DNA from: Neptuniibacter sp. QD29_5
GTDB lineage: Bacteria > Pseudomonadota > Gammaproteobacteria > Pseudomonadales > Balneatricaceae
Reading direction: 5' to 3'
DNA length: 16,000 bases
NCBI RefSeq assembly: GCF_047778125.1
Contig: NZ_CP180556.1
Coordinates: 2,373,231 to 2,389,230, forward strand
A program made the translations under genes and the position numbers. This document shows positions 1 to 11,453 of this stretch, piece by piece (positions within the stretch are counted from its first letter, which is position 1; every line of letters begins with the position of its first letter). Below the pieces are notes generated by a model that made no database searches, was not told where the DNA came from, and was given only the letters and a program-made list of their open reading frames with translations.

Positions 1-647
1 GCTTAAAGCGCCTGTCACAGCAGATTCACCCCATTTTAATCTCTGATCACGCTTGCTTTACTTGGAGTCATTTAAATGGGAAATCAGTGCACGCAGGAGA
101 TCTTTTACCGCTTGAGTTTACGCAAGCAAGCCTAAAGGTTATGGCGGATAATATTGATCAAATACAACAACTACTCGGTCGGCAAATCCTAGTAGAAAAC
201 TTGTCCGCATATATTACTTTTCCACATTCACAAATGAGCGAAACGGAATTTCTCTCACAATTAGTACACTTGACCGGTTGTGGGCTGTTATTGGATCTGA
301 ATAACTTACTTGTTAATGCTCATAATTTCAGTGAACACCCCGCTTTAACTAATGCTGAAGACTGGATAGCTCAAATTCCCATAAACGCCGTAGGTGAAAT
401 TCACCTAGCAGGCTATACCTCGATTAAGCAAGGTGAATTGATCATTGATGATCATAGCCAGCCCGTATCAGACGAATGTTGGGCGTTATACCAAAGCACA
501 TTGCAATTAACAGGTCCGGTTACAACCTTGATTGAATGGGATAACGATCTACCCTCCTGGCATGCACTATTAGCACAAGCAGAATACGCAAAATCAATCA
601 TGCAAAATATCACTCTTCCAAAAGAGGAGTTTGCCCATGCTATCTGA
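1..647 (+). CDS. DUF692 / MNIO-family (MbnB/BufB-like) non-heme iron enzyme, 5'-truncated by the window edge
   Basis: The frame is open from base 3 (LKRLSQQIHPILISDHACFTWSH...), so the track's Met at 87 is internal. Motifs ISDH.C, VENLS, IHLAGY, IDDH and IEWDND fit the TIM-barrel DUF692 family. It is followed by DUF2063 and DoxX genes, the usual partners. Confidence 0.85.
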   Translation, partial: LKRLSQQIHPILISDHACFTWSHLNGKSVHAGDLLPLEFTQASLKVMADNIDQIQQLLGRQILVENLSAYITFPHSQMSETEFLSQLVHLTGCGLLLDLNNLLVNAHNFSEHPALTNAEDWIAQIPINAVGEIHLAGYTSIKQGELIIDDHSQPVSDECWALYQSTLQLTGPVTTLIEWDNDLPSWHALLAQAEYAKSIMQNITLPKEEFAHAI

Positions 648-1419
648 ACGCACTGCTTTAGATAACCGCCAAGCAGCACTTATCAATATGATATTCAGCG
701 GCATTCAGTCTTCCACCGAACATCCATTCCACCCTGAGGAACAAGGAATTCAAATCTATAGGAACAACCTATTAATTACCGCAACCAGAGCCCTGTGTAT
801 GAACTATCCAGTAATTGAAAAAATGCTTGGACCTAAGACCATGGGGCTTTTAACTCAGCAGCTTCTAGAGATAGAACTACCTAACAGCGGTGACTGGGCG
901 GACTTTGGTAAAAGCTTACCAGCTCTAATAAATAAAGGCCCTTTGCATCAAGAACATCCTTATTTGGAAACAACCGCAAAGCTTGAATGGCATTTAAAGC
1001 AAGCGGCAAGAAGCACAGTAACAAATCTTGATATTGCTTCACTTTCTCACCTCTCCGACACCGACTTAGGCACTGTTTATATCCAACTAGGAGAAAATAT
1101 AAACCTGCTTACAAGTGCCATTAGAGTTGATGAGCTTTGGCGACTCCATCAGCCAGGCAGAAATAAAGACTTACTTAACAGTGAAAACCTATTAACTGTT
1201 CTCATACCTCAAGATAAACCGTACTGGTTTGTGATCTACCAAAAAGACCATCTTCCCTGCATCAAATCAATCTCTGAAGCAGAGTATCGATGGTTCTCAG
1301 CCATACAATCTGGCCACAGCCTTTCTGATCTTCTAGAGCAATTCCATCAGTTTGACTTTAGCCAATGGTTATCTGAAGCCATTGAACAACAATGGCTAAA
1401 AAAACTCAGCAAACGATAA
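631..1419 (+). CDS. DUF2063 domain protein (BufC-like partner of MNIO enzymes)
   Basis: The N-terminal motif IQIYRNNLLITATRALCMNYPVIEKMLG...PNSGDW matches the DUF2063 signature (VYRNN...YPV...LG...SGD). The track start at 631 is a TTG one base after the SD AGGAG (625-629). ATG at 637 has 7-nt spacing and is the more likely start. Either start overlaps the upstream stop (645-647), suggesting translational coupling. Confidence 0.8.
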   Translation: MPMLSERTALDNRQAALINMIFSGIQSSTEHPFHPEEQGIQIYRNNLLITATRALCMNYPVIEKMLGPKTMGLLTQQLLEIELPNSGDWADFGKSLPALINKGPLHQEHPYLETTAKLEWHLKQAARSTVTNLDIASLSHLSDTDLGTVYIQLGENINLLTSAIRVDELWRLHQPGRNKDLLNSENLLTVLIPQDKPYWFVIYQKDHLPCIKSISEAEYRWFSAIQSGHSLSDLLEQFHQFDFSQWLSEAIEQQWLKKLSKR

Positions 1420-1434
1420 GATAAGGAGCTCACA

Positions 1435-1914
1435 ATGATTCACTGGATTAGAAGCACATACCAAAATTATTTAGACCACGAAAAAGTACTCAATAAAGTT
1501 CATATAGTGGCATCTATATTTTCTCGGTTTTACATAGCCCAAATATTTTTCAATGCGGGTTTAACCAAAATACAGGATTGGGACACTACGCTATTTCTTT
1601 TTGAAGAGGAATATCAAGTACCTTTCCTGTCATTTGAACTAGCTGCTGTTCTTGGAACCATGAGCGAGCTAATTCTTCCCATCTTATTATTTACAGGATT
1701 ATTAACTCGCGTTGCAGCCATAGGACTATTTATCGTAAACCTTGTCGCTGTCATTAGCCTGATCGAAATAGCGCCAGCCGCACTTTATTTGCACTACATT
1801 TGGGGCCTTCTTCTAACTCACATCATCATTTACGGTTCCGGCCCTATTGCACTCGACAATGTGGTCCGAAGAATAAATCCGAAAATGCACATGAATAAAG
1901 AAATACTCACCTAG
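1435..1914 (+). CDS. DoxX-family integral membrane protein
   Basis: It has about four hydrophobic helices. The motif RFYIAQIFFNAGLTKIQDW...ELILPILLFTGLLTRVAAIGL is typical of DoxX. SD AAGGAG lies at 1423-1428, 6 nt before the ATG. It is the third gene of the DUF692-DUF2063-DoxX set. Confidence 0.8.
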   Translation: MIHWIRSTYQNYLDHEKVLNKVHIVASIFSRFYIAQIFFNAGLTKIQDWDTTLFLFEEEYQVPFLSFELAAVLGTMSELILPILLFTGLLTRVAAIGLFIVNLVAVISLIEIAPAALYLHYIWGLLLTHIIIYGSGPIALDNVVRRINPKMHMNKEILT

Positions 1915-4693: not shown

Positions 4694-4984
4694 TCAAGCT
4701 ATTCGTTGCCTTGAAGCCCACTCTATATGACGTTGTATTTTCGTTGCACCTAATAAAAGCTCCAACGTATAAAACTCTTTAGCCAAAGTCATCTCATCAA
4801 ATGATCGATGTACCGCATCATGACAGCAACGGCAAATATGAATACCAAGATTCAATTCCTTGCGACTATAACGCTTCGAGAAATAGGAACGTCTATGCAT
4901 CTTTTTTGGAATCAGATGATGGAACGTTAACGACAATGTTCGTTTACATAAAGGGCATTCAGCCACAAGACTCTTCACTAACAC
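4694..4984 (-). CDS. Small HNH-nuclease-like / zinc-ribbon protein (YisB-like)
   Basis: The motif CPLC...FHHLIPK...CRCCHDAVH gives a CxxC...HH...CxxCH..H arrangement. The track start at 4984 is a GTG fused to the SD. The GTG at 4978 sits 5 nt after AGGAG and is the more likely start (94 aa). Confidence 0.65.
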   Translation of the reverse strand: MLVKSLVAECPLCKRTLSLTFHHLIPKKMHRRSYFSKRYSRKELNLGIHICRCCHDAVHRSFDEMTLAKEFYTLELLLGATKIQRHIEWASRQRIA

Positions 4985-5100
4985 TCCTCACTTATCTATA
5001 GCGTTTCTACTTTTACCACTTTTTCAGCAAGACAGATCAATTCTAAAAAGATCTGCCTCTACAGCCCCCGCGTAAGATCAGTAATACAAAAAGGTGATCT

Positions 5101-6303
5101 ATGAATGATTTTACTAATTTGAAGCTGCAACCAAGTATTAACAATATATCTGAAGCAACCGCATTGGATATTTACAGTCAGCAGCTTGCGCAATTTGATC
5201 TGTTATCCATTGAGGGTGAAAGATCATTAGGTAAAAAAATCAATGCTGAGATGGCTAAAATCATTTCTGAAATTTGCCATCTCCCTCAAGGGCTTGAACG
5301 ACTTTCTGAAGTATTAGAAAACTATCTACATATTTATCAAGGTGCTGACGGTAAAGCGACTAAACGTTGGAAGTACGATCCTGAGCCTAGCTACATAGCT
5401 AACATCACATCAACATTAATCGACACGCTTGAAGTGATGTTATTTTTAAATGAAAAATCAAAGGAAAGAGCACATATCCAAAGTAACTTAATTGCCCTTT
5501 TACAAAGTCTTTCACTTGGCAGGCAACAAATCATAGAAATAGCTGAGCAGTTTGCAGGTCAGCAAAAAAACCTTAAAGGACATATTCAAAATTACTTGAA
5601 GCTTAGATGTGAGCTTGTAGAAAAAAATTTACGCTTGGTTTACACCGTTGCAGGACGATTCAACAGTAGCGGTGTTAGTTATGATGACCTAATACAAGAA
5701 GGTAATGTAGGCCTGCTTAAAGCCGCTGATCGGTTTAATTTCAATAAAGCTTTTCGATTCTCAACTTATGCATTCTGGTGCATACAGAATGTTTTAAAAA
5801 CTGCGTTGCAAAAGCGTTATCACACCATTTCAAGACCCAGTTACCTCCAAGAAAAGCTCAGTATTATCAAAAAGGCTAGAGCCAAATTTGTCAGTAAACA
5901 TGAACGACAACCCACACTAAAGGAGCTTGCATCTTTAAGCGGCATCCCAGTAACAACTTTAGCGAAGATAAACACATTTCCTACTGAACCCCTATCGCTT
6001 AATCAAGGAATAGGTACAGAAAGCGACAGTACTCTATTAGAAGAGATCGTAGCTGACACCACAAAAGAAACTGACCTGTTTTCTGAGCAACAACTAAAGC
6101 GCAAACTTTTAGATCGTATCTGTAGAAAACTCACAATACGTGAGTACCTCGTACTCAAACTTCGCTTTGGTATAGATGCTCGACGAGAACACACTCTGGA
6201 AGAGATCTCACACCAGTTAAATGTAAGCGTGGAGCGAGTCAGACAAATGCAAAAAAATGCTCTAGTAAAACTACAAAATCACGAAGAACTAAATACCCAG
6301 TGA
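5101..6303 (+). CDS. Sigma-70-family RNA polymerase sigma factor, atypical 400-aa form with a region 1.2-like segment, a long insert, and regions 2-4
   Basis: Region 2 is NLRLVYTVAGRF...DLIQEGNVGLLKAADRFNFNKAFRFSTYAFWCIQ. Region 3 is around PTLKELASLSGIP. The region 4.2 HTH is HTLEEISHQLNVSVERVRQMQKNALVKLQ. SD AAGGTGA lies upstream of the ATG. Confidence 0.9.
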   Translation: MNDFTNLKLQPSINNISEATALDIYSQQLAQFDLLSIEGERSLGKKINAEMAKIISEICHLPQGLERLSEVLENYLHIYQGADGKATKRWKYDPEPSYIANITSTLIDTLEVMLFLNEKSKERAHIQSNLIALLQSLSLGRQQIIEIAEQFAGQQKNLKGHIQNYLKLRCELVEKNLRLVYTVAGRFNSSGVSYDDLIQEGNVGLLKAADRFNFNKAFRFSTYAFWCIQNVLKTALQKRYHTISRPSYLQEKLSIIKKARAKFVSKHERQPTLKELASLSGIPVTTLAKINTFPTEPLSLNQGIGTESDSTLLEEIVADTTKETDLFSEQQLKRKLLDRICRKLTIREYLVLKLRFGIDARREHTLEEISHQLNVSVERVRQMQKNALVKLQNHEELNTQ

Positions 6304-6323
6304 GTCTTATGAAAACCACATCA

Positions 6324-6740
6324 CTAAAATAGGCCACTGATGATAAGAGAAGTGCCCGCAACAATAGAAAGATGGGATCTTAATTTCCAGAATATCTTGG
6401 GATAGATGCTAACTAAACTTCTCATCTCATATAACCAGAGCACAAAGAAAGATACACCGGCCACAAAAAGCGTATGTGGTAAGGGATAGACTAACCAGCT
6501 CCATGCCCACAACATAGCCATAATCGCTACCCATGTTTGATGTTTAGCAGTGCCAATAGCCATGGAAGCAAACCAGATCACTCCACCAAGAAATGAATAA
6601 ATGAGCGCAGCATAACTTAACAGCCATTCATCAAATGGAGCTCCCTTTTCAACAGAGAGGATTGCTAATCCAACAAATGGTATTAATCCGAAATAGCCAA
6701 ACAATCGGTGAGTATTTGAAAGAGTAAAGCTTATAGACAT
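6324..6740 (-). CDS. Small integral membrane protein, DUF3429-like
   Basis: It has four predicted TM helices. GLIPF...YAALIYSFLGGVIW resembles the DUF3429 signature. The family call is from memory of that motif only. Confidence 0.55.
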   Translation of the reverse strand: MSISFTLSNTHRLFGYFGLIPFVGLAILSVEKGAPFDEWLLSYAALIYSFLGGVIWFASMAIGTAKHQTWVAIMAMLWAWSWLVYPLPHTLFVAGVSFFVLWLYEMRSLVSIYPKIFWKLRSHLSIVAGTSLIISGLF

Positions 6741-7111: not shown

Positions 7112-8317
7112 TTACAGAGTTGAGCTTGGTCCAAACACTTCGTAGTGAAGCTGCTCTTCAGGAACATTTAAACCTGTTAACTGTTGATGGATAGCATGCA
7201 TAAATGGCAGTGGTCCACAGAAGAAGAAATCTGCATCAAGTGAACAGTACTGCTTAATTTTGTCAGCAGTAATATAGCCATGATGGTCATAATCTTTGCC
7301 TTTTTCTGCACCGTAAATATCTTCATAGAAAGTAGCAGTAGAAAGATTCGACAGATCATTTTTCAGCATGTTGATATGTCCACCAAATGCATGCACATCT
7401 TTGGAACGGGTACCGTGCAACCAGCTAATTTTTCGAGAATCTCGTTTTAAAATAAGCTCATTAAGCATACCTAATACGGGCGTGATACCCACACCTCCGC
7501 TAATCAGTACAACAGGCCTGTCATTGTCTTTTACAAAGAACTCACCACCAGGCATATGAACAGGAACGATATCCCCCTCTTCGACTTTGCTATGTAGATG
7601 ATTAGACACCAAACCATCCGGCGTATTTTCATCACCACTGGTTTCTGCTTTTACCGAAATGCGATACACATCTTCACTATGAGCGTCAGATAAACTGTAC
7701 TGACGGATCTCGGTAAACTCTAAATCGGGATCATTAATCTTCACGCTGATAAACTGACCCGCTTTATATTTAGGTAACGGCTTGTCATCTAAAGGGGCCA
7801 GATAGAAAGAGGTGATTTCGCTACTCTCTTTTACCTTCTTCACTACACTAAAGTTTTTAAATCCTAACCAGCCTTGGTTATCTTGCGAGCTGTCATACAG
7901 ATTAGCTTCCGCACCGATTAAGATACTGGCTAATAACTCATAAGCTTCAGCCCAAGCGTCGATCACTTCATTAGTGGCGATGTCCTCACCTAAGACTTCA
8001 CGAATCGCTTTTAGTAGATTCCGACCTACGATCGGGTAATGTTCTGGCTGAACATCCAAACTAAAGTGTTTAGCCGCAATACGGTGAACTTCTGGCCCAA
8101 TGGCTTCCAATTTATCTATATGCGCTGCATAAGAGAGAATCGATGATGCTAGCGTTGATTGCTGGCGACCGTTGGCTTGGCTCACCATGTTAAAAACATT
8201 TTTAAGCTCCGGATTTTCTTCAAATAACAGACCATAAAAGTGCTTGGTCAGGTCAGTACCTACTTCTTGAATAAGCGGAACAGTTGATTTCACGATGGCT
8301 ATTGATGTTGGGTTCAC
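7112..8317 (-). CDS. hmp: Flavohemoglobin / nitric oxide dioxygenase
   Basis: The protein is collinear with E. coli Hmp. The globin N-terminus is VKSTVPLIQEVG..LTKHFY...NPELKNVFNM. The FAD/NAD reductase half carries RQYSLS, LISGGVGITP and a C-terminal HYEVFGP. The start is GTG at 8317, 8 nt after SD AAGAGG. Confidence 0.95.
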   Translation of the reverse strand: MNPTSIAIVKSTVPLIQEVGTDLTKHFYGLLFEENPELKNVFNMVSQANGRQQSTLASSILSYAAHIDKLEAIGPEVHRIAAKHFSLDVQPEHYPIVGRNLLKAIREVLGEDIATNEVIDAWAEAYELLASILIGAEANLYDSSQDNQGWLGFKNFSVVKKVKESSEITSFYLAPLDDKPLPKYKAGQFISVKINDPDLEFTEIRQYSLSDAHSEDVYRISVKAETSGDENTPDGLVSNHLHSKVEEGDIVPVHMPGGEFFVKDNDRPVVLISGGVGITPVLGMLNELILKRDSRKISWLHGTRSKDVHAFGGHINMLKNDLSNLSTATFYEDIYGAEKGKDYDHHGYITADKIKQYCSLDADFFFCGPLPFMHAIHQQLTGLNVPEEQLHYEVFGPSSTL

Positions 8318-8342: not shown

Positions 8343-8365
8343 TAAATGTATTTTTAAAACATCTT
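8343..8365. promoter_or_regulatory. NsrR-type operator candidate (box 1), proximal to hmp
   Basis: The minus strand reads AAGATGTTTTA-A-AAATACATTTA. That matches 18/22 of the gammaproteobacterial NsrR 11-1-11 inverted repeat as I remember it (AAGATGyATTT-N-AAATrCATCTT). It lies 26-48 bp upstream of the hmp start and overlaps a candidate -10 (TAAGAT, 8361-8366 on the minus strand). Confidence 0.6.
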
Positions 8366-8379
8366 ATAGACGGATCATT

Positions 8380-8402
8380 AAGATGTAAATATGATACATG
8401 TT
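8380..8402. promoter_or_regulatory. NsrR-type operator candidate (box 2), distal to hmp
   Basis: AAGATGTAAAT-A-TGATACATGTT matches 17/22 of the same consensus. The ATGTA/TACAT cores are palindromic. It overlaps a candidate hmp -35 (TTTACA, 8384-8389 on the minus strand). Confidence 0.55.
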
Positions 8403-8599: not shown

Positions 8600-9685
8600 T
8601 TGGATAATGACAACTGGGTTAAACCCACCCTTATAAGATCATCCATCATTGCCATTGTTGTAGGCACGCTACTCAACCTAATTAATCAGGGCGATCAATT
8701 CTTTGCTGGATACTATGTTAATTGGCTCAAAGTGAGCCTGACCTACTGCGTTCCCTTCTCGGTATCGCTATTTAGCAGCTGGTTAATCATCCGTAGTCGG
8801 CCAGAACTAAAATCTTGCCCAGAGGTAATAAACCATCAACACTTAGTTGGGAATGAACTGAACTCATTAACCGACTTTGCCCAAAAAGTGCTAAGCAACG
8901 CGACCAAGGTAAATAAAGCCTCCACTGAGCGACTCGCATTTTTACAGTCACTCTCCACCAGCATTAATTCCTCTATAAAAGAATTAAACGGTATCGGCCA
9001 AACGCTAGAAGGGAGTGAAAATGACCTTGGGGGGATTCAATCTAATTTCGGAAAACTGATGGATCAAACCTCACTACTCGGTAACGAAATCCATCAATTT
9101 TCCAATGCCTCGCAATCGCTAAAACATGAGATCGCGCAATTTTTAGCGTCCTTTGAAGGTATCTCCTCGCTGGCGTCTGCAATTACAACCACCTCAGAGC
9201 AAACTAACCTGCTTGCCCTGAATGCTGCTATTGAAGCAGCTCGAGCAGGAGAAGCAGGTAAAGGCTTTGCCGTAGTAGCTGATGAAGTAAAAGCGCTGGC
9301 ACAGCATTCGCGCGAAAATGCACAGGATATCGATCAGAATCTAGAAAACCTGAAACAACATGAGATCCGTCTTAAAGCTCAACTAGAACTGATCGAGCGC
9401 ACAGTAAATAACTCATTAAAAACCGTGAGTACAGGTACAGAGAATGGCATGTCTTCTTTAACCGATGAAACGCTATCTAAAATCGATACGTTGTTCAGCC
9501 ATATTCAAGCAATCAATGAACGCACCTCAGAAGAGCTAGAAAACTTCCAGGAGATCTCTCAACAATTTGAAGCGGTAATAGGCGATGCGCAAAAAGCAAT
9601 TGATGGCTCAGCAGCCAATATTACGTTTGGGGCATCGATGGTGGATCTGAGTTCGACGATGTCATCTAAGCTCAAGATCGCTTAG
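8600..9685 (+). CDS. Methyl-accepting chemotaxis protein with an NrtS-like (nitrate/nitrite transporter family) 2-TM N-terminal module
   Basis: The C-terminal two thirds is a canonical MCP signalling hairpin ([40 protein letters not shown]). The N-terminal 65 aa ([20 protein letters not shown]...[20 protein letters not shown]) resembles NrtS. There is no in-frame ATG near the 5' end. The start is TTG at 8600, 7 nt after SD GAGGA. Confidence 0.85.
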
Positions 9686-9760: not shown

Positions 9761-10180
9761 TTAGTCGAAGATGCTAAGGAACAACTCCCACTTACTTGGC
9801 TTCGCCTTCTTATGATATTCCTTACGTAGCTCATCCACTGCTTCAAGCTGCTTCTGCACCTGCTTTAGGTTATCAGCCGTCGCAACTGGAATCCCATTTA
9901 CCAGTTGTTCTACTTTTTTCAGACCTTCAAGAGAGATCACTTTGCGCTCAGGTGAAAAGTCATAAGCCTGCGCGTTTTTCAGATGATCTTTGAAGATATC
10001 CATTCGTTGGTTAAAGCCCTCAGCCGAGCTACTCACCATCGCTTCTTTATACTGCAGACGCATCTCTTTCATAGTCTGTTTTAAAGTTAGCGGGTTACCT
10101 GCACTTACATACCCACTTGTTGTGAACATCACAGCAACTAACAAAGAACTAAATAACGTTTTAAAAGCAGAGAACTTCAT
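9761..10180 (-). CDS. cybC: Periplasmic cytochrome b562-family four-helix-bundle protein
   Basis: It has a Sec signal peptide (…TSGYVSA/GNP). The mature N-terminus LKQTMKEM parallels the E. coli b562 Met ligand region (DNMETL). The C-terminus LRKEYHKK parallels TRNAYHQKYR (His ligand). Length and helical character fit the family. Confidence 0.65.
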   Translation of the reverse strand: MKFSAFKTLFSSLLVAVMFTTSGYVSAGNPLTLKQTMKEMRLQYKEAMVSSSAEGFNQRMDIFKDHLKNAQAYDFSPERKVISLEGLKKVEQLVNGIPVATADNLKQVQKQLEAVDELRKEYHKKAKPSKWELFLSIFD

Positions 10181-10342
10181 AAAAAAATCAACCTACATAA
10201 CATCAAGATATTTACCGAGCAGGTAATATATCAGATCTGACGATTAGGCTGAATCAAAGCGTAGTCATGTTAAAGACGCTTAGAGATAGTGGGGCTTGAA
10301 TTGGATAAGAAAAATCCTGCGCCCATGCAAATATTATCTGGT

Positions 10343-10972
10343 TTAGTACAAGGTATTTTTAACCCTATCTTCGATGATCTCCTCTACCTTTTTTACCTCT
10401 TCGGCTGATTTAGACGGATCAATCTGTGCCATTAGAATCTTACCCAAGCTTGGCATGATATTCCGATCAACTATCGATTCTGGCTCCCATAATTTAGAAC
10501 GCGTAATCGCTTTAGCGCAGTGAAAGTAGATCTCTTTGATAGAGATAACGATAGCGGATTTCGGCAACTTACCTTGATACTCACAGCGCTCTAAAACAGA
10601 AGCATTCGTAATAATTTTGGCCGTGCCATTAACTCGAAGACATTCACTGAACCCCGGCACTAACACCAAAAGTCCAACATGAGGGTTCTGAATAATATTA
10701 CTTAAGCTATCTAAGCGATTGTTGCCGGGGCGATCTGGGAGAATAATCGTACTGTCATCCCAAATTTGAATAAAACCAGCATGATCTCCCCTCGGCGAGC
10801 AATCCATATTGCCTTGATTATCCGATGTAGCCAGCAACATAAAAGGCGATAACTCTATGAATTTCTGACTAAATTTATCGAGCTGAGTCTTTTGCTTTTT
10901 AATCACTAGCTCCATCGGAAGACCATATAACTCTCTAAGTTTTTCTACCGAATCGATCTGTTCTAATTCCAT
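10343..10972 (-). CDS. Pyridoxamine 5'-phosphate oxidase (PPOX)-class FMN-binding flavoprotein, MSMEG_1061-like subfamily
   Basis: The motifs SPFMLLATSD..G..DCSPRGD..GF, LPDRPGNNRLDSL.NI..NPHVGLL.LVPG and ECLRVNG.AKI are characteristic of this subfamily. A strong SD GGAGGG lies 5 nt before the ATG. Confidence 0.8.
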   Translation of the reverse strand: MELEQIDSVEKLRELYGLPMELVIKKQKTQLDKFSQKFIELSPFMLLATSDNQGNMDCSPRGDHAGFIQIWDDSTIILPDRPGNNRLDSLSNIIQNPHVGLLVLVPGFSECLRVNGTAKIITNASVLERCEYQGKLPKSAIVISIKEIYFHCAKAITRSKLWEPESIVDRNIMPSLGKILMAQIDPSKSAEEVKKVEEIIEDRVKNTLY

Positions 10973-11032: not shown

Positions 11033-11061
11033 TTGACTAGAATACTATGGGATCATAACAT
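11033..11061 (+). promoter_or_regulatory. Candidate sigma-70 promoter for the CCGSCS micro-ORF
   Basis: TTGACT (11033-11038), a 17-nt spacer, then TAACAT (11056-11061). This is a by-eye match only. Confidence 0.3.
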
Positions 11062-11079
11062 GTAAAATAAATACATCTA
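11057..11079. promoter_or_regulatory. NsrR-type operator candidate (box 3), between the PPOX gene and the CCGSCS micro-ORF
   Basis: The minus strand reads TAGATGTATTT-A-TTTTACATGTT, matching 17/22 of the remembered NsrR consensus and 18/23 of box 2 at 8380-8402. It overlaps the candidate -10 and ends 21 nt before the micro-ORF ATG. Confidence 0.5.
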
Positions 11080-11100
11080 ATATTATATAAAGGTATTCCT

Positions 11101-11277
11101 ATGTCTTCTCTACTAAAAAGCTTGTTCAAGAAAGATAAAGACGTTGCTGAAACTGCAACAACAAAAGAAGCATCCGCTGTAGAAGTAGCAGCAAAAGGAG
11201 ATGGTAACAGTAAAGAATCGAATGAGAAGAAAGGTAAACACGGTCAACCAGGCGTATGCTGCGGATCATGCTCTTAA
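11101..11277 (+). CDS. 58-aa small protein with C-terminal HGxPGxCCGSCS motif (CCGSCS-motif family); absent from the ORF track
   Basis: My own translation is MSSLLKSLFKKDKDVAETATTKEASAVEVAAKGDGNSKESNEKKGKHGQPGVCCGSCS*. The ATG follows AAGG by 7 nt. The stop is followed 12 nt later by a perfect 12-bp hairpin. The ORF lies in an otherwise empty divergent intergenic region. Confidence 0.65.
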   Translation: MSSLLKSLFKKDKDVAETATTKEASAVEVAAKGDGNSKESNEKKGKHGQPGVCCGSCS

Positions 11278-11289
11278 CACTATGATAAC

Positions 11290-11322
11290 CTGTAACCTCG
11301 GTCCCCTTAGCCGAGGTTACAG
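11290..11322 (+). terminator. Perfect 12-bp hairpin after the micro-ORF, putative terminator without a U-tract
   Basis: ctgtaacctcgg (11290-11301) / ccgaggttacag (11311-11322) with a 9-nt loop. A second 9-bp hairpin follows at 11327-11358. Confidence 0.4.
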
Positions 11323-11453
11323 CCTACTCAGTGACATACTGCTTCTAAGGTCACTGAGCAAAAAATCACAATTACAAGGACGATGCTATTGCCCTCTAAC
11401 CTAAACAAGAGGGATTTGTATACAGGTAGCAGCGCTGTAAACCTTGCTTTACC

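What the first reader, a model, noticed from the sequence alone, without database searches (positions are those of the whole stretch)
11057..11277. Untracked 58-aa ORF ending in HGQPGVCCGSCS, preceded by an hmp-like operator
The six-frame track omits this ORF, presumably because it falls below a length cut-off. It has an ATG with an upstream AAGG, a disordered Lys/Glu/Ala-rich middle, and a terminal Cys cluster (CCGSCS) directly at the stop. A perfect hairpin follows it. I recall 'CCGSCS motif protein' as a named small-protein family with no assigned function. New here is a 23-bp inverted repeat (11057-11079) overlapping its candidate -10. That repeat is 18/23 identical to one of the two boxes in front of hmp. 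A three-Cys C-terminal knuckle preceded by His could bind metal or an Fe-S/dinitrosyl-iron species, or be a target of S-nitrosylation. It could also be a RiPP-like core. All of these functional ideas are inference.
Basis: partly seen in the sequence, partly recalled or inferred. Interest (0 to 1): 0.75.

Follow-up and report, generated by a model that had tools for sequence, protein, structure and literature searches.

The report
NO-regulated small cysteine peptide gene
A real 58-residue protein of the uncharacterised "CCGSCS motif" family sits behind a promoter whose -10 is covered by an NsrR-type (nitric-oxide repressor) binding site; that site recurs in front of this gene family in most marine gammaproteobacterial lineages sampled, giving the family its first functional clue.

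Summary
ORF 11101-11277 (+) encodes a 58-aa protein that matches NCBIfam TIGR04101 "CCGSCS motif protein" full length (50.4 bits, cut-off 28). It is under strong purifying selection: pN/pS is 0.024 in the last 16 codons. The window comes from a Neptuniibacter species.

The box at 11057-11079 is 18/23 identical to the reverse complement of one of two boxes upstream of hmp (8343-8365 and 8380-8402). It fits the published NsrR consensus gATGyAT-N5-ATrCATc.

The new result is that the box belongs to the whole family. In 39 of 45 distinct CCGSCS loci (Neptuniibacter, Photobacterium, Vibrio, Aliivibrio, Shewanella, Halomonas/Billgrantia, Marinobacter), with unrelated neighbouring genes, the layout is the same: TTGACn, 17 nt, TAA[C/G]AT, with the box overlapping the -10. 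In 235 kb of background, the only sites of equal score were the hmp boxes. The six loci without a box form two clades, and four of them carry an FNR/DNR-type box (TTGAT-N4-[A/G]TCAA) instead.

The gene is therefore most likely an NsrR-repressed, NO-induced, monocistronic unit. The conserved C-terminal H-x5-CC-x2-C suggests a thiol or metal (Fe/DNIC) ligand site, but this is inference only. A RiPP role is disfavoured because no neighbouring gene recurs. I could not locate the nsrR gene, and nothing here was tested experimentally.

The parts
11033..11038 (+). -35 hexamer TTGACT of the CCGSCS promoter
   Evidence: promoter scan. A hexamer at the same fixed distance from the box is TTGACn in 35 of 39 box-bearing loci, with 1.4-2.0 bits per position across 28 non-redundant promoters.
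11056..11061 (+). -10 hexamer TAACAT, 17 nt after the -35; its last 5 bases are the first 5 bases of the operator
   Evidence: It is TAACAT in 20 and TAAGAT in 19 of 39 loci.
11057..11079 (.). NsrR-type operator AACATGTAAAATAAATACATCTA (11-1-11 format; cores ATGTA-N7-TACAT)
   Evidence: 18/23 and 17/23 to the hmp boxes. It scores 16/18 on the degenerate consensus AAsATGyAT-N5-ATrCATsTT and is reached by 0 of 500 dinucleotide shuffles of its own upstream region. The consensus comes from PMC1274295 and PMC8175989.
11090..11093 (+). Shine-Dalgarno-like AAGG, 7 nt before the ATG
   Evidence: Read directly from the sequence. Purine-rich SD-like sequences sit at the same position in other genera.
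11101..11277 (+). CCGSCS motif protein gene (58 aa plus stop)
   Evidence: TIGR04101, 50.4 bits against a cut-off of 28. There are 255 homologues at E<=1e-3. pN/pS is 0.17 (N-terminal 12 codons), 0.41 (middle) and 0.024 (C-terminal 16 codons). An independent assembly calls it as a gene.
11230..11274 (+). Codons for the conserved C-terminal module KGKHGQPGVCCGSCS (His47, Cys53, Cys54, Cys57)
   Evidence: CCGxC is present in 186 of 187 members and His in 185 of 187. The last Cys is 1-2 residues from the C-terminus. Window against SY11_33: 9 synonymous and 0 nonsynonymous changes.
11290..11322 (+). 13-bp stem-loop after the stop codon (no U-tract)
   Evidence: It is conserved in L003 and L004 with a loop substitution. 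A hairpin of dG <= -10 kcal/mol lies within 90 nt of the stop in 40 of 43 family loci.
11327..11358 (+). Second stem-loop (9-bp stem)
8343..8402 (.). Two tandem NsrR-type boxes upstream of hmp (8343-8365 and 8380-8402); the reference operators in the same genome
   Evidence: hmp is 7112-8317 (-), matching NF009805 at E 7e-152.
10343..10972 (-). Divergent PPOX-type FMN flavoprotein gene (TIGR04025), possibly co-repressed through the same box
   Evidence: A candidate minus-strand promoter has its -35 (TTTACA, 11066-11061) inside the box. Co-regulation is inferred, not tested.

Best explanation
The locus is a self-contained transcription unit in a Neptuniibacter genome. It has a near-consensus sigma-70 promoter (TTGACT, 17 nt, TAACAT). 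An NsrR-type operator covers the -10 and the start-site region. A short leader with an AAGG ribosome-binding site precedes a 58-codon gene of the CCGSCS motif family (TIGR04101), which is followed by a stem-loop.

Shown here:
- The ORF is translated and under selection.
- The promoter-operator layout is conserved across the family in most lineages sampled.

Inferred from established NsrR biology:
- Holo-NsrR, which carries an Fe-S cluster, binds the box and blocks RNA polymerase.
- NO nitrosylates the cluster, NsrR leaves the DNA, and the peptide is made together with Hmp.

Inferred from sequence only:
- The working part is the nearly invariant C-terminal K-H-G-x-P-G-x-C-C-G-S-C-S. One His and three thiolates lie within 11 residues at the free C-terminus.
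- This end is joined by a variable acidic disordered linker to a conserved basic, weakly amphipathic N-terminus (M..LK.LFKK).
- I propose that this end acts stoichiometrically as a thiol or metal ligand site during nitrosative stress. It could capture iron or dinitrosyl-iron species released from damaged Fe-S clusters, or take up nitrosating equivalents.
- The strong promoter and very small product suit an abundant buffer better than an enzyme.

In two clades (Alcanivoracaceae-like and Marinicella-like) the NsrR box is absent. Four of those six loci carry an FNR/DNR-type box instead.
For: Real protein:
- TIGR04101 full-length hit above the cut-off.
- 255 homologues.
- pN/pS of 0.024 in the C-terminal 16 codons over 59 pairs.
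- CCGxC invariant in 186 of 187 members.

Operator:
- The box is 17-18/23 identical to the two hmp boxes of the same genome.
- It fits gATGyAT-N5-ATrCATc (PMC1274295) and the 11-1-11 AAxATGCATTT site (PMC8175989).
- It resembles validated or predicted E. coli sites listed in PMC5320621.

Family-wide conservation:
- 39 of 45 distinct loci have a box scoring at least 14/18 within 200 nt upstream, most starting 44-51 nt before the ATG.
- In 235 kb of background, the only sites scoring at least 15 are the hmp boxes.
- At most 0.8% of dinucleotide shuffles reach each box score, including in GC-rich Halomonas upstream regions.
- The -35, 17-nt spacer and -10 have a fixed geometry with the -10 overlapping the box in 39 of 39 loci.
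- Information content is confined to the -35, the -10 junction and the two box arms.

Independence of the loci:
- Neighbouring genes differ in every genus.

Regulator switching:
- Five of the six exact TTGAT-N4-[AG]TCAA sites in 245 kb lie within 150 nt upstream of CCGSCS genes, four of them in loci without an NsrR box.
- PMC1274295 describes the same behaviour for core NO-regulon genes.

Monocistronic unit:
- Hairpins follow the stop codon in 40 of 43 loci.

NsrR is documented in Halomonas (PMC8014003) and in Vibrionales and Shewanella (PMC1274295).
Against: - No nsrR (Rrf2) gene lies in the window or within 10 kb of either end. I could not scan the rest of the genome, so the regulator is identified from its motif alone.
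- There are no expression, binding or peptide-detection data. No paper mentions the family.
- The window's box is among the weaker ones. Its half-sites match the E. coli half-site at 6/10 and 8/10, and its arms are self-complementary at 6/11.
- In the Marinobacter clades, position 6 of the box is T, A or C rather than G. No canonical NsrR target from those genomes was available for comparison.
- The biochemical role has no direct support. Pfam, PDB and Rfam give no hits. The AlphaFold model has low confidence (pLDDT 57). The N-terminal amphipathicity is weak (z about 0.7).
- Only a tri-thiolate/His site is evident. The metal or ligand cannot be deduced from sequence.
Confidence: 0.7

Rival explanations
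1. The peptide is a metal-handling protein (a Zn, Cu(I), Cd/Hg or As(III) buffer or chaperone, like a minimal metallothionein or an ArsD/MerA-type vicinal-cysteine site). NO control reflects metal release during nitrosative stress rather than direct NO, DNIC or S-nitrosothiol chemistry.
For: The conserved site is H-x5-CC-x2-C at a flexible C-terminus. From general knowledge, such a site suits trigonal or tetrahedral thiolate coordination. In Marinobacter the gene lies next to a PCuAC/LpqE-like copper chaperone gene.
Against: No metal-responsive operator (Fur, Zur, CueR or ArsR type) was seen. The only conserved upstream element is the NsrR-type box. The copper-chaperone neighbour appears in one genus only. 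With only three Cys, buffering capacity would be small.
Confidence: 0.2
2. The peptide is a small regulatory or accessory subunit. Its N-terminal helix and C-terminal knuckle would dock onto a larger partner, such as a membrane respiratory complex, NnrS, Hmp or NsrR itself, and modulate that partner under NO stress.
For: Both ends are conserved and the linker is not, which is typical of a two-point tether. The N-terminus is basic and weakly amphipathic and is predicted helical. Small NsrR-controlled proteins of unknown role exist in E. coli: YoaG, c5065 and YgbA (PMC5320621).
Against: No partner gene recurs in the neighbourhood. The structure model is of low confidence. The amphipathicity is not significant.
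Confidence: 0.15
3. In this Neptuniibacter locus the box mainly controls the divergent PPOX-type flavoprotein gene (possibly with the cytochrome b562-like gene), and the small ORF is only a bystander.
For: The box lies in a 128-bp divergent intergenic region. A candidate minus-strand promoter has its -35 inside the box. The genes form an hmp-linked cluster conserved in SY11_33. V. vulnificus has a precedent in which one NsrR site controls divergent promoters (PMC8175989).
Against: In other genera the box goes with the CCGSCS gene, whatever its neighbours, and keeps a fixed register to the CCGSCS -35 and -10. No PPOX gene lies next to CCGSCS elsewhere. Co-repression of both genes is compatible with the main explanation. 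Only the exclusive 'bystander' version is a rival.
Confidence: 0.05
4. The ORF is a RiPP precursor: an N-terminal leader and a C-terminal CCGSCS core that a maturase modifies.
For: The product is small, with a conserved N-terminus and a Cys-rich extreme C-terminus. An MNIO/bufferin operon lies in the same window.
Against: No maturase, protease or exporter recurs beside the gene in 11 genomic contexts. The bufferin operon is 9 kb away, has its own BufA1 precursor and is absent from other CCGSCS loci. The gene has its own promoter and terminator-like hairpin.
Confidence: 0.04
5. The box is bound by a regulator other than NsrR, such as another Rrf2 paralogue or an unrelated factor with a similar AT-rich palindrome, so the signal is not NO.
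For: The nsrR gene was not located. The Marinobacter-type boxes depart from ATGCAT at position 6.
Against: The same motif lies in tandem upstream of hmp, the most conserved NsrR target (PMC1274295), in the same genome. It matches the experimentally defined 11-1-11 site (PMC8175989, PMC5320621). In the loci without the box, the replacement is another regulator class that PMC1274295 places in the nitrogen-oxide network.
Confidence: 0.08

Closest known systems
TIGR04101 / NCBIfam 'CCGSCS motif protein'
   Same: Full-length HMM match above the curated cut-off, the same length class (51-66 aa), and the same C-terminal CCGSCS. NCBI annotates the identical sequence under this name in Neptuniibacter.
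   Different: None; it is a member. The family name records only the motif. No function or regulation is attached to it in the sources I could search.
NsrR regulon genes for NO protection (hmp, nnrS, ytfE/dnrN, hcp) as reconstructed by Rodionov et al. 2005 (PMC1274295)
   Same: The same operator consensus. The operator overlaps the promoter. The site is conserved upstream of orthologues across genera. The regulator is replaced by another nitrogen-oxide or FNR-family regulator in some lineages.
   Different: The product is a roughly 58-aa peptide with no recognisable domain. That paper's text does not list it. The curated RegPrecise database could not be consulted here.
Small NsrR-controlled proteins of unknown role in E. 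coli: YoaG (yeaR-yoaG), YgbA, c5065 (PMC5320621)
   Same: They are small, strongly NO- or nitrate-induced, preceded by NsrR sites, and of unknown function.
   Different: No sequence similarity was detected. Pfam gave no hit for the CCGSCS protein. YoaG and c5065 sit in operons, whereas CCGSCS is monocistronic.
Vicinal-cysteine metal sites (ArsD Cys12-Cys13-Cys18; the MerA C-terminal Cys pair; metallothioneins). This comparison rests on my own knowledge and was not tested.
   Same: A CC pair plus a third nearby Cys on a flexible terminus, a geometry used to bind and hand over soft metals.
   Different: No homology. One His is conserved. The control signal here is NO rather than a metal. No metal binding has been shown.
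Bufferin/MNIO RiPP precursors (BufA1), encoded at the start of the same window
   Same: Small Cys-containing peptides linked to metal stress.
   Different: BufA1 precursors are encoded next to their MNIO maturase. CCGSCS genes have no such neighbour in any genus examined.

Membership tests
TIGR04101 CCGSCS motif protein | Score above the curated NCBIfam cut-off over the full model | tested here: met
   50.4 bits against 28, residues 1-58 on model positions 1-59 of 59.
TIGR04101 CCGSCS motif protein | Small size (about 50-65 aa) with CCG[SG]C[SQH] at the extreme C-terminus | tested here: met
   58 aa ending in CCGSCS followed by the stop.
NsrR regulon | Upstream site matching the NsrR consensus (gATGyAT-N5-ATrCATc; 11-1-11 AAxATGCATTT) | tested here: met
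   16/18 on the degenerate consensus. Half-sites match at 6/10 and 8/10. 0 of 500 shuffles reach this score.
NsrR regulon | The same motif upstream of hmp, the canonical target, in the same genome | tested here: met
   Two boxes at 8343-8365 and 8380-8402 score 15 and 17 of 18 and are 17-18/23 identical to the CCGSCS box.
NsrR regulon | The site is conserved upstream of orthologues in diverged genomes (phylogenetic footprint) | tested here: met
   39 of 45 loci from at least 7 genera with unrelated flanks. Information content is confined to the -35, the -10 junction and the box arms.
NsrR regulon | The operator is placed to repress, overlapping the -10 or the transcription start | tested here: met
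   The -10 TAA[C/G]AT overlaps box positions 1-5 in 39 of 39 loci. The promoter was identified by consensus only, and no start site was mapped.
NsrR regulon | An nsrR (Rrf2-family) gene is present in the genome | not testable with these tools
   None in the 16-kb window or within 10 kb of either end. NsrR is documented in Halomonas, Vibrionales and Shewanella (PMC8014003, PMC1274295).
NsrR regulon | NsrR binding, and NO- or NsrR-dependent expression | not testable with these tools
   This needs EMSA or ChIP, and reporter or RNA measurements.
RiPP precursor peptide | Encoded beside a conserved maturase, protease or exporter | tested here: not met
   The neighbours differ in every genus and none is a known RiPP enzyme.
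Metal-binding Cys peptide (metallothionein or metallochaperone-like) | A conserved cluster of metal-ligand residues | tested here: met
   H-x5(4)-CC-x2-C is nearly invariant in 187 members.
Metal-binding Cys peptide (metallothionein or metallochaperone-like) | Demonstrated metal binding | not testable with these tools
   This needs purified peptide and spectroscopy.
FNR/DNR-type regulon (loci without the NsrR box only) | A TTGAT-N4-[AG]TCAA box upstream of the gene | tested here: inconclusive
   Present in L015, L056, L059 and L014 but not in L039 or L040. Five of the six exact sites in 245 kb lie upstream of CCGSCS genes. The spacing to a promoter is not convincing.

The most novel reading that the evidence does not exclude
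CCGSCS peptides would be a previously unrecognised class of NO-stress effector. On this reading they are abundant, NsrR- or DNR-controlled tri-thiolate/His peptides. They might be held at the membrane surface by the basic N-terminal helix, where NO and its nitrosating products concentrate. They would act as a sacrificial sink or hand-off point for dinitrosyl-iron or nitrosonium equivalents. That would add a peptide-based buffering arm of nitrosative-stress defence in marine Gammaproteobacteria, alongside enzymatic detoxification by Hmp.
Probability: 0.2. Interest if true: 0.75.

Novelty: new member of a known kind. Interest (0 to 1): 0.58.

Why it matters
The CCGSCS motif family is a conserved small-protein family named only for its motif. 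I found 255 homologues across several orders of marine Gammaproteobacteria. Placing it under a conserved NsrR-type operator gives it a first testable physiological context, the nitric-oxide stress response, in organisms that include tractable models such as Marinobacter nauticus, Aliivibrio and Photobacterium.

It also adds a candidate core member to the NsrR regulon. Small proteins are easily missed by annotation and by regulon reconstruction. The result points to a minimal His/Cys3 site whose chemistry can be probed with a synthetic peptide: iron-nitrosyl capture, S-nitrosation or metal hand-off. The apparent swap from an NsrR box to an FNR/DNR-type box in two clades is a further example of regulator replacement in the nitrogen-oxide network.

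Tried and rejected
It returned only four Neptuniibacter loci and exhausted the cap, so no whole-genome search for nsrR or for other boxes was possible.
- The file held as Table S4 of Rodionov 2005 contains the DNR sheet, not the NsrR sites, so it was uninformative.
- In the V. vulnificus nsrR-deletion transcriptome, the third most derepressed gene is an unnamed hypothetical protein, VVMO6_RS23435. V. vulnificus is not among the named holders of the family, so I dropped this lead.
- Literature searches for 'CCGSCS', 'swp_0610' and NsrR plus small cysteine-rich proteins found nothing relevant.
- Pfam (E<=1), a PDB profile search (E<=10) and Rfam (E<=1) gave no hits.
- The AlphaFold model built from a 52-sequence alignment has pLDDT 57 and pTM 0.18. 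I did not run a fold search because matches to such a model would be meaningless.
- The N-terminus as a MinD-like amphipathic membrane-targeting helix: mean hydrophobic moment 0.39, z about 0.7 against shuffles. This is too weak to claim and is kept only as speculation.
- Extending 10 kb beyond each end of the window found no Rrf2 gene.
- The FNR-like box in Vibrio L012 coincides with the -35 and is not conserved in L051, so it is probably chance.
Full report
**1. What is in the sequence**

The ORF at 11101-11277 (+) exists as described. It starts with ATG and encodes 58 aa, MSSLLKSLFKKDKDVAETATTKEASAVEVAAKGDGNSKESNEKKGKHGQPGVCCGSCS, with the stop directly after CCGSCS. AAGG lies 7 nt before the ATG.

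A perfect 12-13 bp stem-loop follows at 11290-11322, and a second one at 11327-11358. Together they score z = -6.4 against shuffles. Neither has a U-tract.

The box AACATGTAAAATAAATACATCTA at 11057-11079 overlaps the -10 of a sigma-70-like promoter: TTGACT at 11033-11038, a 17-nt spacer, then TAACAT at 11056-11061.

hmp is at 7112-8317 (-), matching NF009805 at E 7e-152. Two boxes lie upstream of it:
- 8343-8365, TAAATGTATTTTTAAAACATCTT
- 8380-8402, AAGATGTAAATATGATACATGTT

The CCGSCS box is 18/23 identical to the reverse complement of the second hmp box and 17/23 to that of the first. The two hmp boxes match each other at only 15/23. As a palindrome the CCGSCS box is imperfect: its arms are complementary at 6 of 11 positions, with perfect 5-bp cores ATGTA/TACAT. 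ATGTA-N7-TACAT with at most 1 mismatch occurs 4 times in the window against 0.69 expected, and three of the four are these boxes.

**2. The ORF is a real, known protein family**

The protein matches NCBIfam TIGR04101 "CCGSCS motif protein" over its full length (E 3.3e-13, 50.4 bits, cut-off 28). There is no hit in Pfam, among PDB sequences or in Rfam for this region. The identical protein is annotated under this name in Neptuniibacter strains, which identifies the organism.

An exhaustive HMMER scan and two profile searches found 255 relatives at E<=1e-3. They occur in Photobacterium, Vibrio, Aliivibrio, Shewanella, Halomonas/Billgrantia, Marinobacter, Alcanivoracaceae and Marinicella.

The family has three regions:
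- a conserved basic N-terminus, M..[LF]K.[LI]FKK;
- a variable Ala/Glu/Gln/Thr-rich acidic middle, with net charge about -4;
- a nearly invariant C-terminus, K-H-G-[ED]-[PD]-G-[VF]-C-C-G-[SG]-C-[SQH].

Among 187 members, CCGxC is present in 186 and the His in 185. One subclade has H-x4-CC instead of H-x5-CC. The last Cys is 1-2 residues from the C-terminus.

Codon-level comparison of 59 pairs gives these pN/pS values:

| Region | pN/pS | Detail |
|---|---|---|
| C-terminal 16 codons | 0.024 | 242 synonymous, 20 nonsynonymous differences |
| N-terminal 12 codons | 0.17 | |
| Middle | 0.41 | |

Between the window and strain SY11_33, the C-terminal module shows 9 synonymous and 0 nonsynonymous changes. 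This rules out a spurious ORF and conservation at the nucleotide level only. AlphaFold with a 52-sequence alignment gives no confident fold: pLDDT 57, pTM 0.18, a helix at residues 3-32 of modest confidence and disorder beyond.

**3. The operator belongs to the family, not just to this locus**

I fetched genomic context for members from nine further genera or clades and 41 metagenomic loci. The neighbouring genes differ in every genus. They include fatty-acid oxidation genes, EF-G and a phosphopantetheinyl transferase, a GGDEF protein and a PCuAC-like gene, a catalase, and a lipase chaperone with a flavin monooxygenase. The loci are therefore independent samples.

I scored a degenerate consensus taken from the literature and the hmp boxes, AAsATGyAT-N5-ATrCATsTT (18 specified positions):
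- 39 of 45 distinct loci have a site scoring at least 14/18 within 200 nt upstream of the start. Most sites begin 44-51 nt before the ATG.
- In the remaining 235 kb of these loci, the only sites scoring at least 15 are the ten copies of the two hmp boxes in the five Neptuniibacter sequences.
- Dinucleotide-preserving shuffles of each upstream region reach the observed score in at most 0.8% of trials for all 39 loci. This includes Halomonas upstream regions with only 41-46% A+T.

Anchoring on the box shows one fixed layout in 39 of 39 loci. A -35-like hexamer (TTGACn in 35 loci) is followed by a 17-nt spacer and then TAACAT (20 loci) or TAAGAT (19 loci), whose last five bases are box positions 1-5. 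Across 28 non-redundant promoters, information content is high only in three places: the -35, the -10 junction and the two box arms. The spacer, the five central box positions and the leader are near zero bits. That is the footprint expected of a dimeric repressor site on a sigma-70 promoter. Marinobacter nauticus carries a perfect palindrome, AACATTCAT-AAAAA-ATGAATGTT, in the same register.

**4. Which regulator**

The motif equals the NsrR consensus gATGyAT-N5-ATrCATc derived by Rodionov et al. (PMC1274295). It also equals the 11-1-11 AAxATGCATTT site, footprinted in V. vulnificus at positions -2 to +18 of hmpA (PMC8175989). It resembles E. coli CFT073 sites such as AAGATATATGTTATATGAATGTT (PMC5320621).

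hmp is the most conserved NsrR target (PMC1274295), and in this genome it carries the same motif in tandem. Inferred mechanism: holo-NsrR occludes the -10 and start site, and NO-driven nitrosylation of its Fe-S cluster releases it (PMC8175989).

I could not find the nsrR gene. NsrR is documented in Halomonas (PMC8014003) and in Vibrionales and Shewanella (PMC1274295).

**5. The exceptions are informative**

The six loci without a box form two clades:
- Alcanivoracaceae-like: L015, L056, L059
- Marinicella-like: L014, L039, L040

Exact TTGAT-N4-[AG]TCAA, the FNR/DNR-type consensus (PMC1274295), occurs six times in 245 kb. Five of these lie within 150 nt upstream of a CCGSCS gene: L015 at -90, L056 at -90, L059 at -93, L014 at -147 and L012 at -126. 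One lies inside a gene. The L012 site coincides with the -35 and is not conserved in L051, so it is probably chance.

This looks like the regulator replacement that Rodionov et al. describe for core nitrogen-oxide-response genes. The evidence is thinner, and I could not identify a convincing promoter spacing.

**6. What it probably does**

Each locus looks like a monocistronic unit. The gene has its own promoter, and a stable hairpin follows the stop codon in 40 of 43 loci, in several cases a canonical terminator.

A strong promoter driving a 58-aa product that has no fold but one invariant H-x5-CC-x2-C site suggests a stoichiometric thiol or metal ligand function induced by NO. Candidates are capture of iron or dinitrosyl-iron released from damaged Fe-S clusters, uptake of nitrosating equivalents, or metal hand-off. 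This is inference from sequence and regulon context only.

The basic N-terminus reminded me of amphipathic membrane-targeting helices. The hydrophobic-moment test was weak (z about 0.7), so this stays speculative.

A RiPP role is disfavoured. No maturase or exporter recurs beside the gene. The bufferin/MNIO operon at the start of the window has its own BufA1 precursor and is absent from other CCGSCS loci.

In Neptuniibacter the box may also repress the divergent PPOX-type flavoprotein gene at 10343-10972, since a candidate minus-strand -35 lies inside the box. That would add to control of the small gene rather than replace it.

**7. Comparison with what is known, and novelty**

- The ORF is a member of an already named family, so the ORF itself is not new.
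- The link between this family and the NsrR-type operator is absent from the searchable literature. I could not consult RegPrecise.
- The closest analogues are the small NsrR-controlled proteins of unknown role in E. coli: YoaG, YgbA and c5065 (PMC5320621). I detected no homology to them.
- I rate this as a new member of a known kind, namely a conserved and previously unlisted member of the NsrR nitrosative-stress regulon.

**8. Confidence**

| Claim | Confidence |
|---|---|
| The ORF is a real translated protein of TIGR04101 | about 0.97 |
| It is under NsrR-type, NO-responsive control | about 0.85 |
| It acts as a thiol/metal or DNIC-type ligand | about 0.4 |

Noticed in passing
window 1-1914 (extended upstream in L061 7987-10480): The window begins inside a bufferin-type RiPP operon: BufA1 precursor (95 aa, PF10048), an MbnB/MNIO maturase (the window's 87-647 is its C-terminal part), an HvfC/DUF2063 protein (631-1419) and a DoxX/HvfX-like protein (1435-1914).
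   Followed up: partly
window 8343-8402 and 8600-9685: hmp has two tandem NsrR-type boxes 37 bp apart. Divergent from it is an MCP-signalling protein whose N-terminus resembles the nitrate/nitrite transporter NrtS (NF038050, E 1e-6). This could be an NO- or nitrite-linked chemoreceptor sharing the hmp control region.
   Followed up: no
window 9761-10972: A PPOX-type FMN flavoprotein gene (TIGR04025, 10343-10972, -) and a cytochrome b562-like gene (9761-10180, -) lie between hmp and the CCGSCS gene. The flavoprotein's candidate -35 sits inside the CCGSCS box. The gene order hmp, MCP, cyt b562, PPOX, CCGSCS is conserved in strain SY11_33 (L004), suggesting a local NO-response island.
   Followed up: partly
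L015 3911-3924, L056 833-846, L059 2285-2298, L014 3854-3867: CCGSCS genes that lack the NsrR box carry an exact FNR/DNR-type box, TTGAT-N4-[AG]TCAA, 90-147 nt upstream. The Marinicella-like loci L039 and L040 have neither box.
   Followed up: partly
L010 7191-8177 and L017 2777-5253: In Marinobacter and in Aliivibrio, a GFA-family gene (glutathione-dependent formaldehyde-activating, PF04828) and a glutathione S-transferase gene lie within a few kb of the CCGSCS gene. This is a possible thiol or S-nitrosoglutathione theme, seen in only two contexts, and may be chance.
   Followed up: no
family-wide (proteins P0141-P0187; P0028/P0063, P0029/P0047, P0137/P0139): A subclade has one residue fewer between His and the Cys pair (KHGEDFCCGSCS). 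Several names appear on two distinct family members (Halomonas sp. BC04, Photobacterium sanguinicancri, Aliivibrio logei); whether these are paralogues within one genome was not checked.
   Followed up: no
window 4694-6740: An extra RpoD-like sigma-70 factor (5101-6303, 400 aa) has its best sub-threshold resemblance to the MZA anti-phage sigma MzaA. It is flanked by an HNH/HlpB-like ORF (4694-4984) and a DUF3429 membrane protein (6324-6740) just downstream of hmp.
   Followed up: no
PMC8175989 Supplementary Table 1: In the V. vulnificus nsrR-deletion transcriptome, the third most derepressed gene after hmpA and nnrS is an unnamed hypothetical protein, VVMO6_RS23435. V. vulnificus was not among the named CCGSCS holders, so it is probably a different small NsrR target.
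   Followed up: partly
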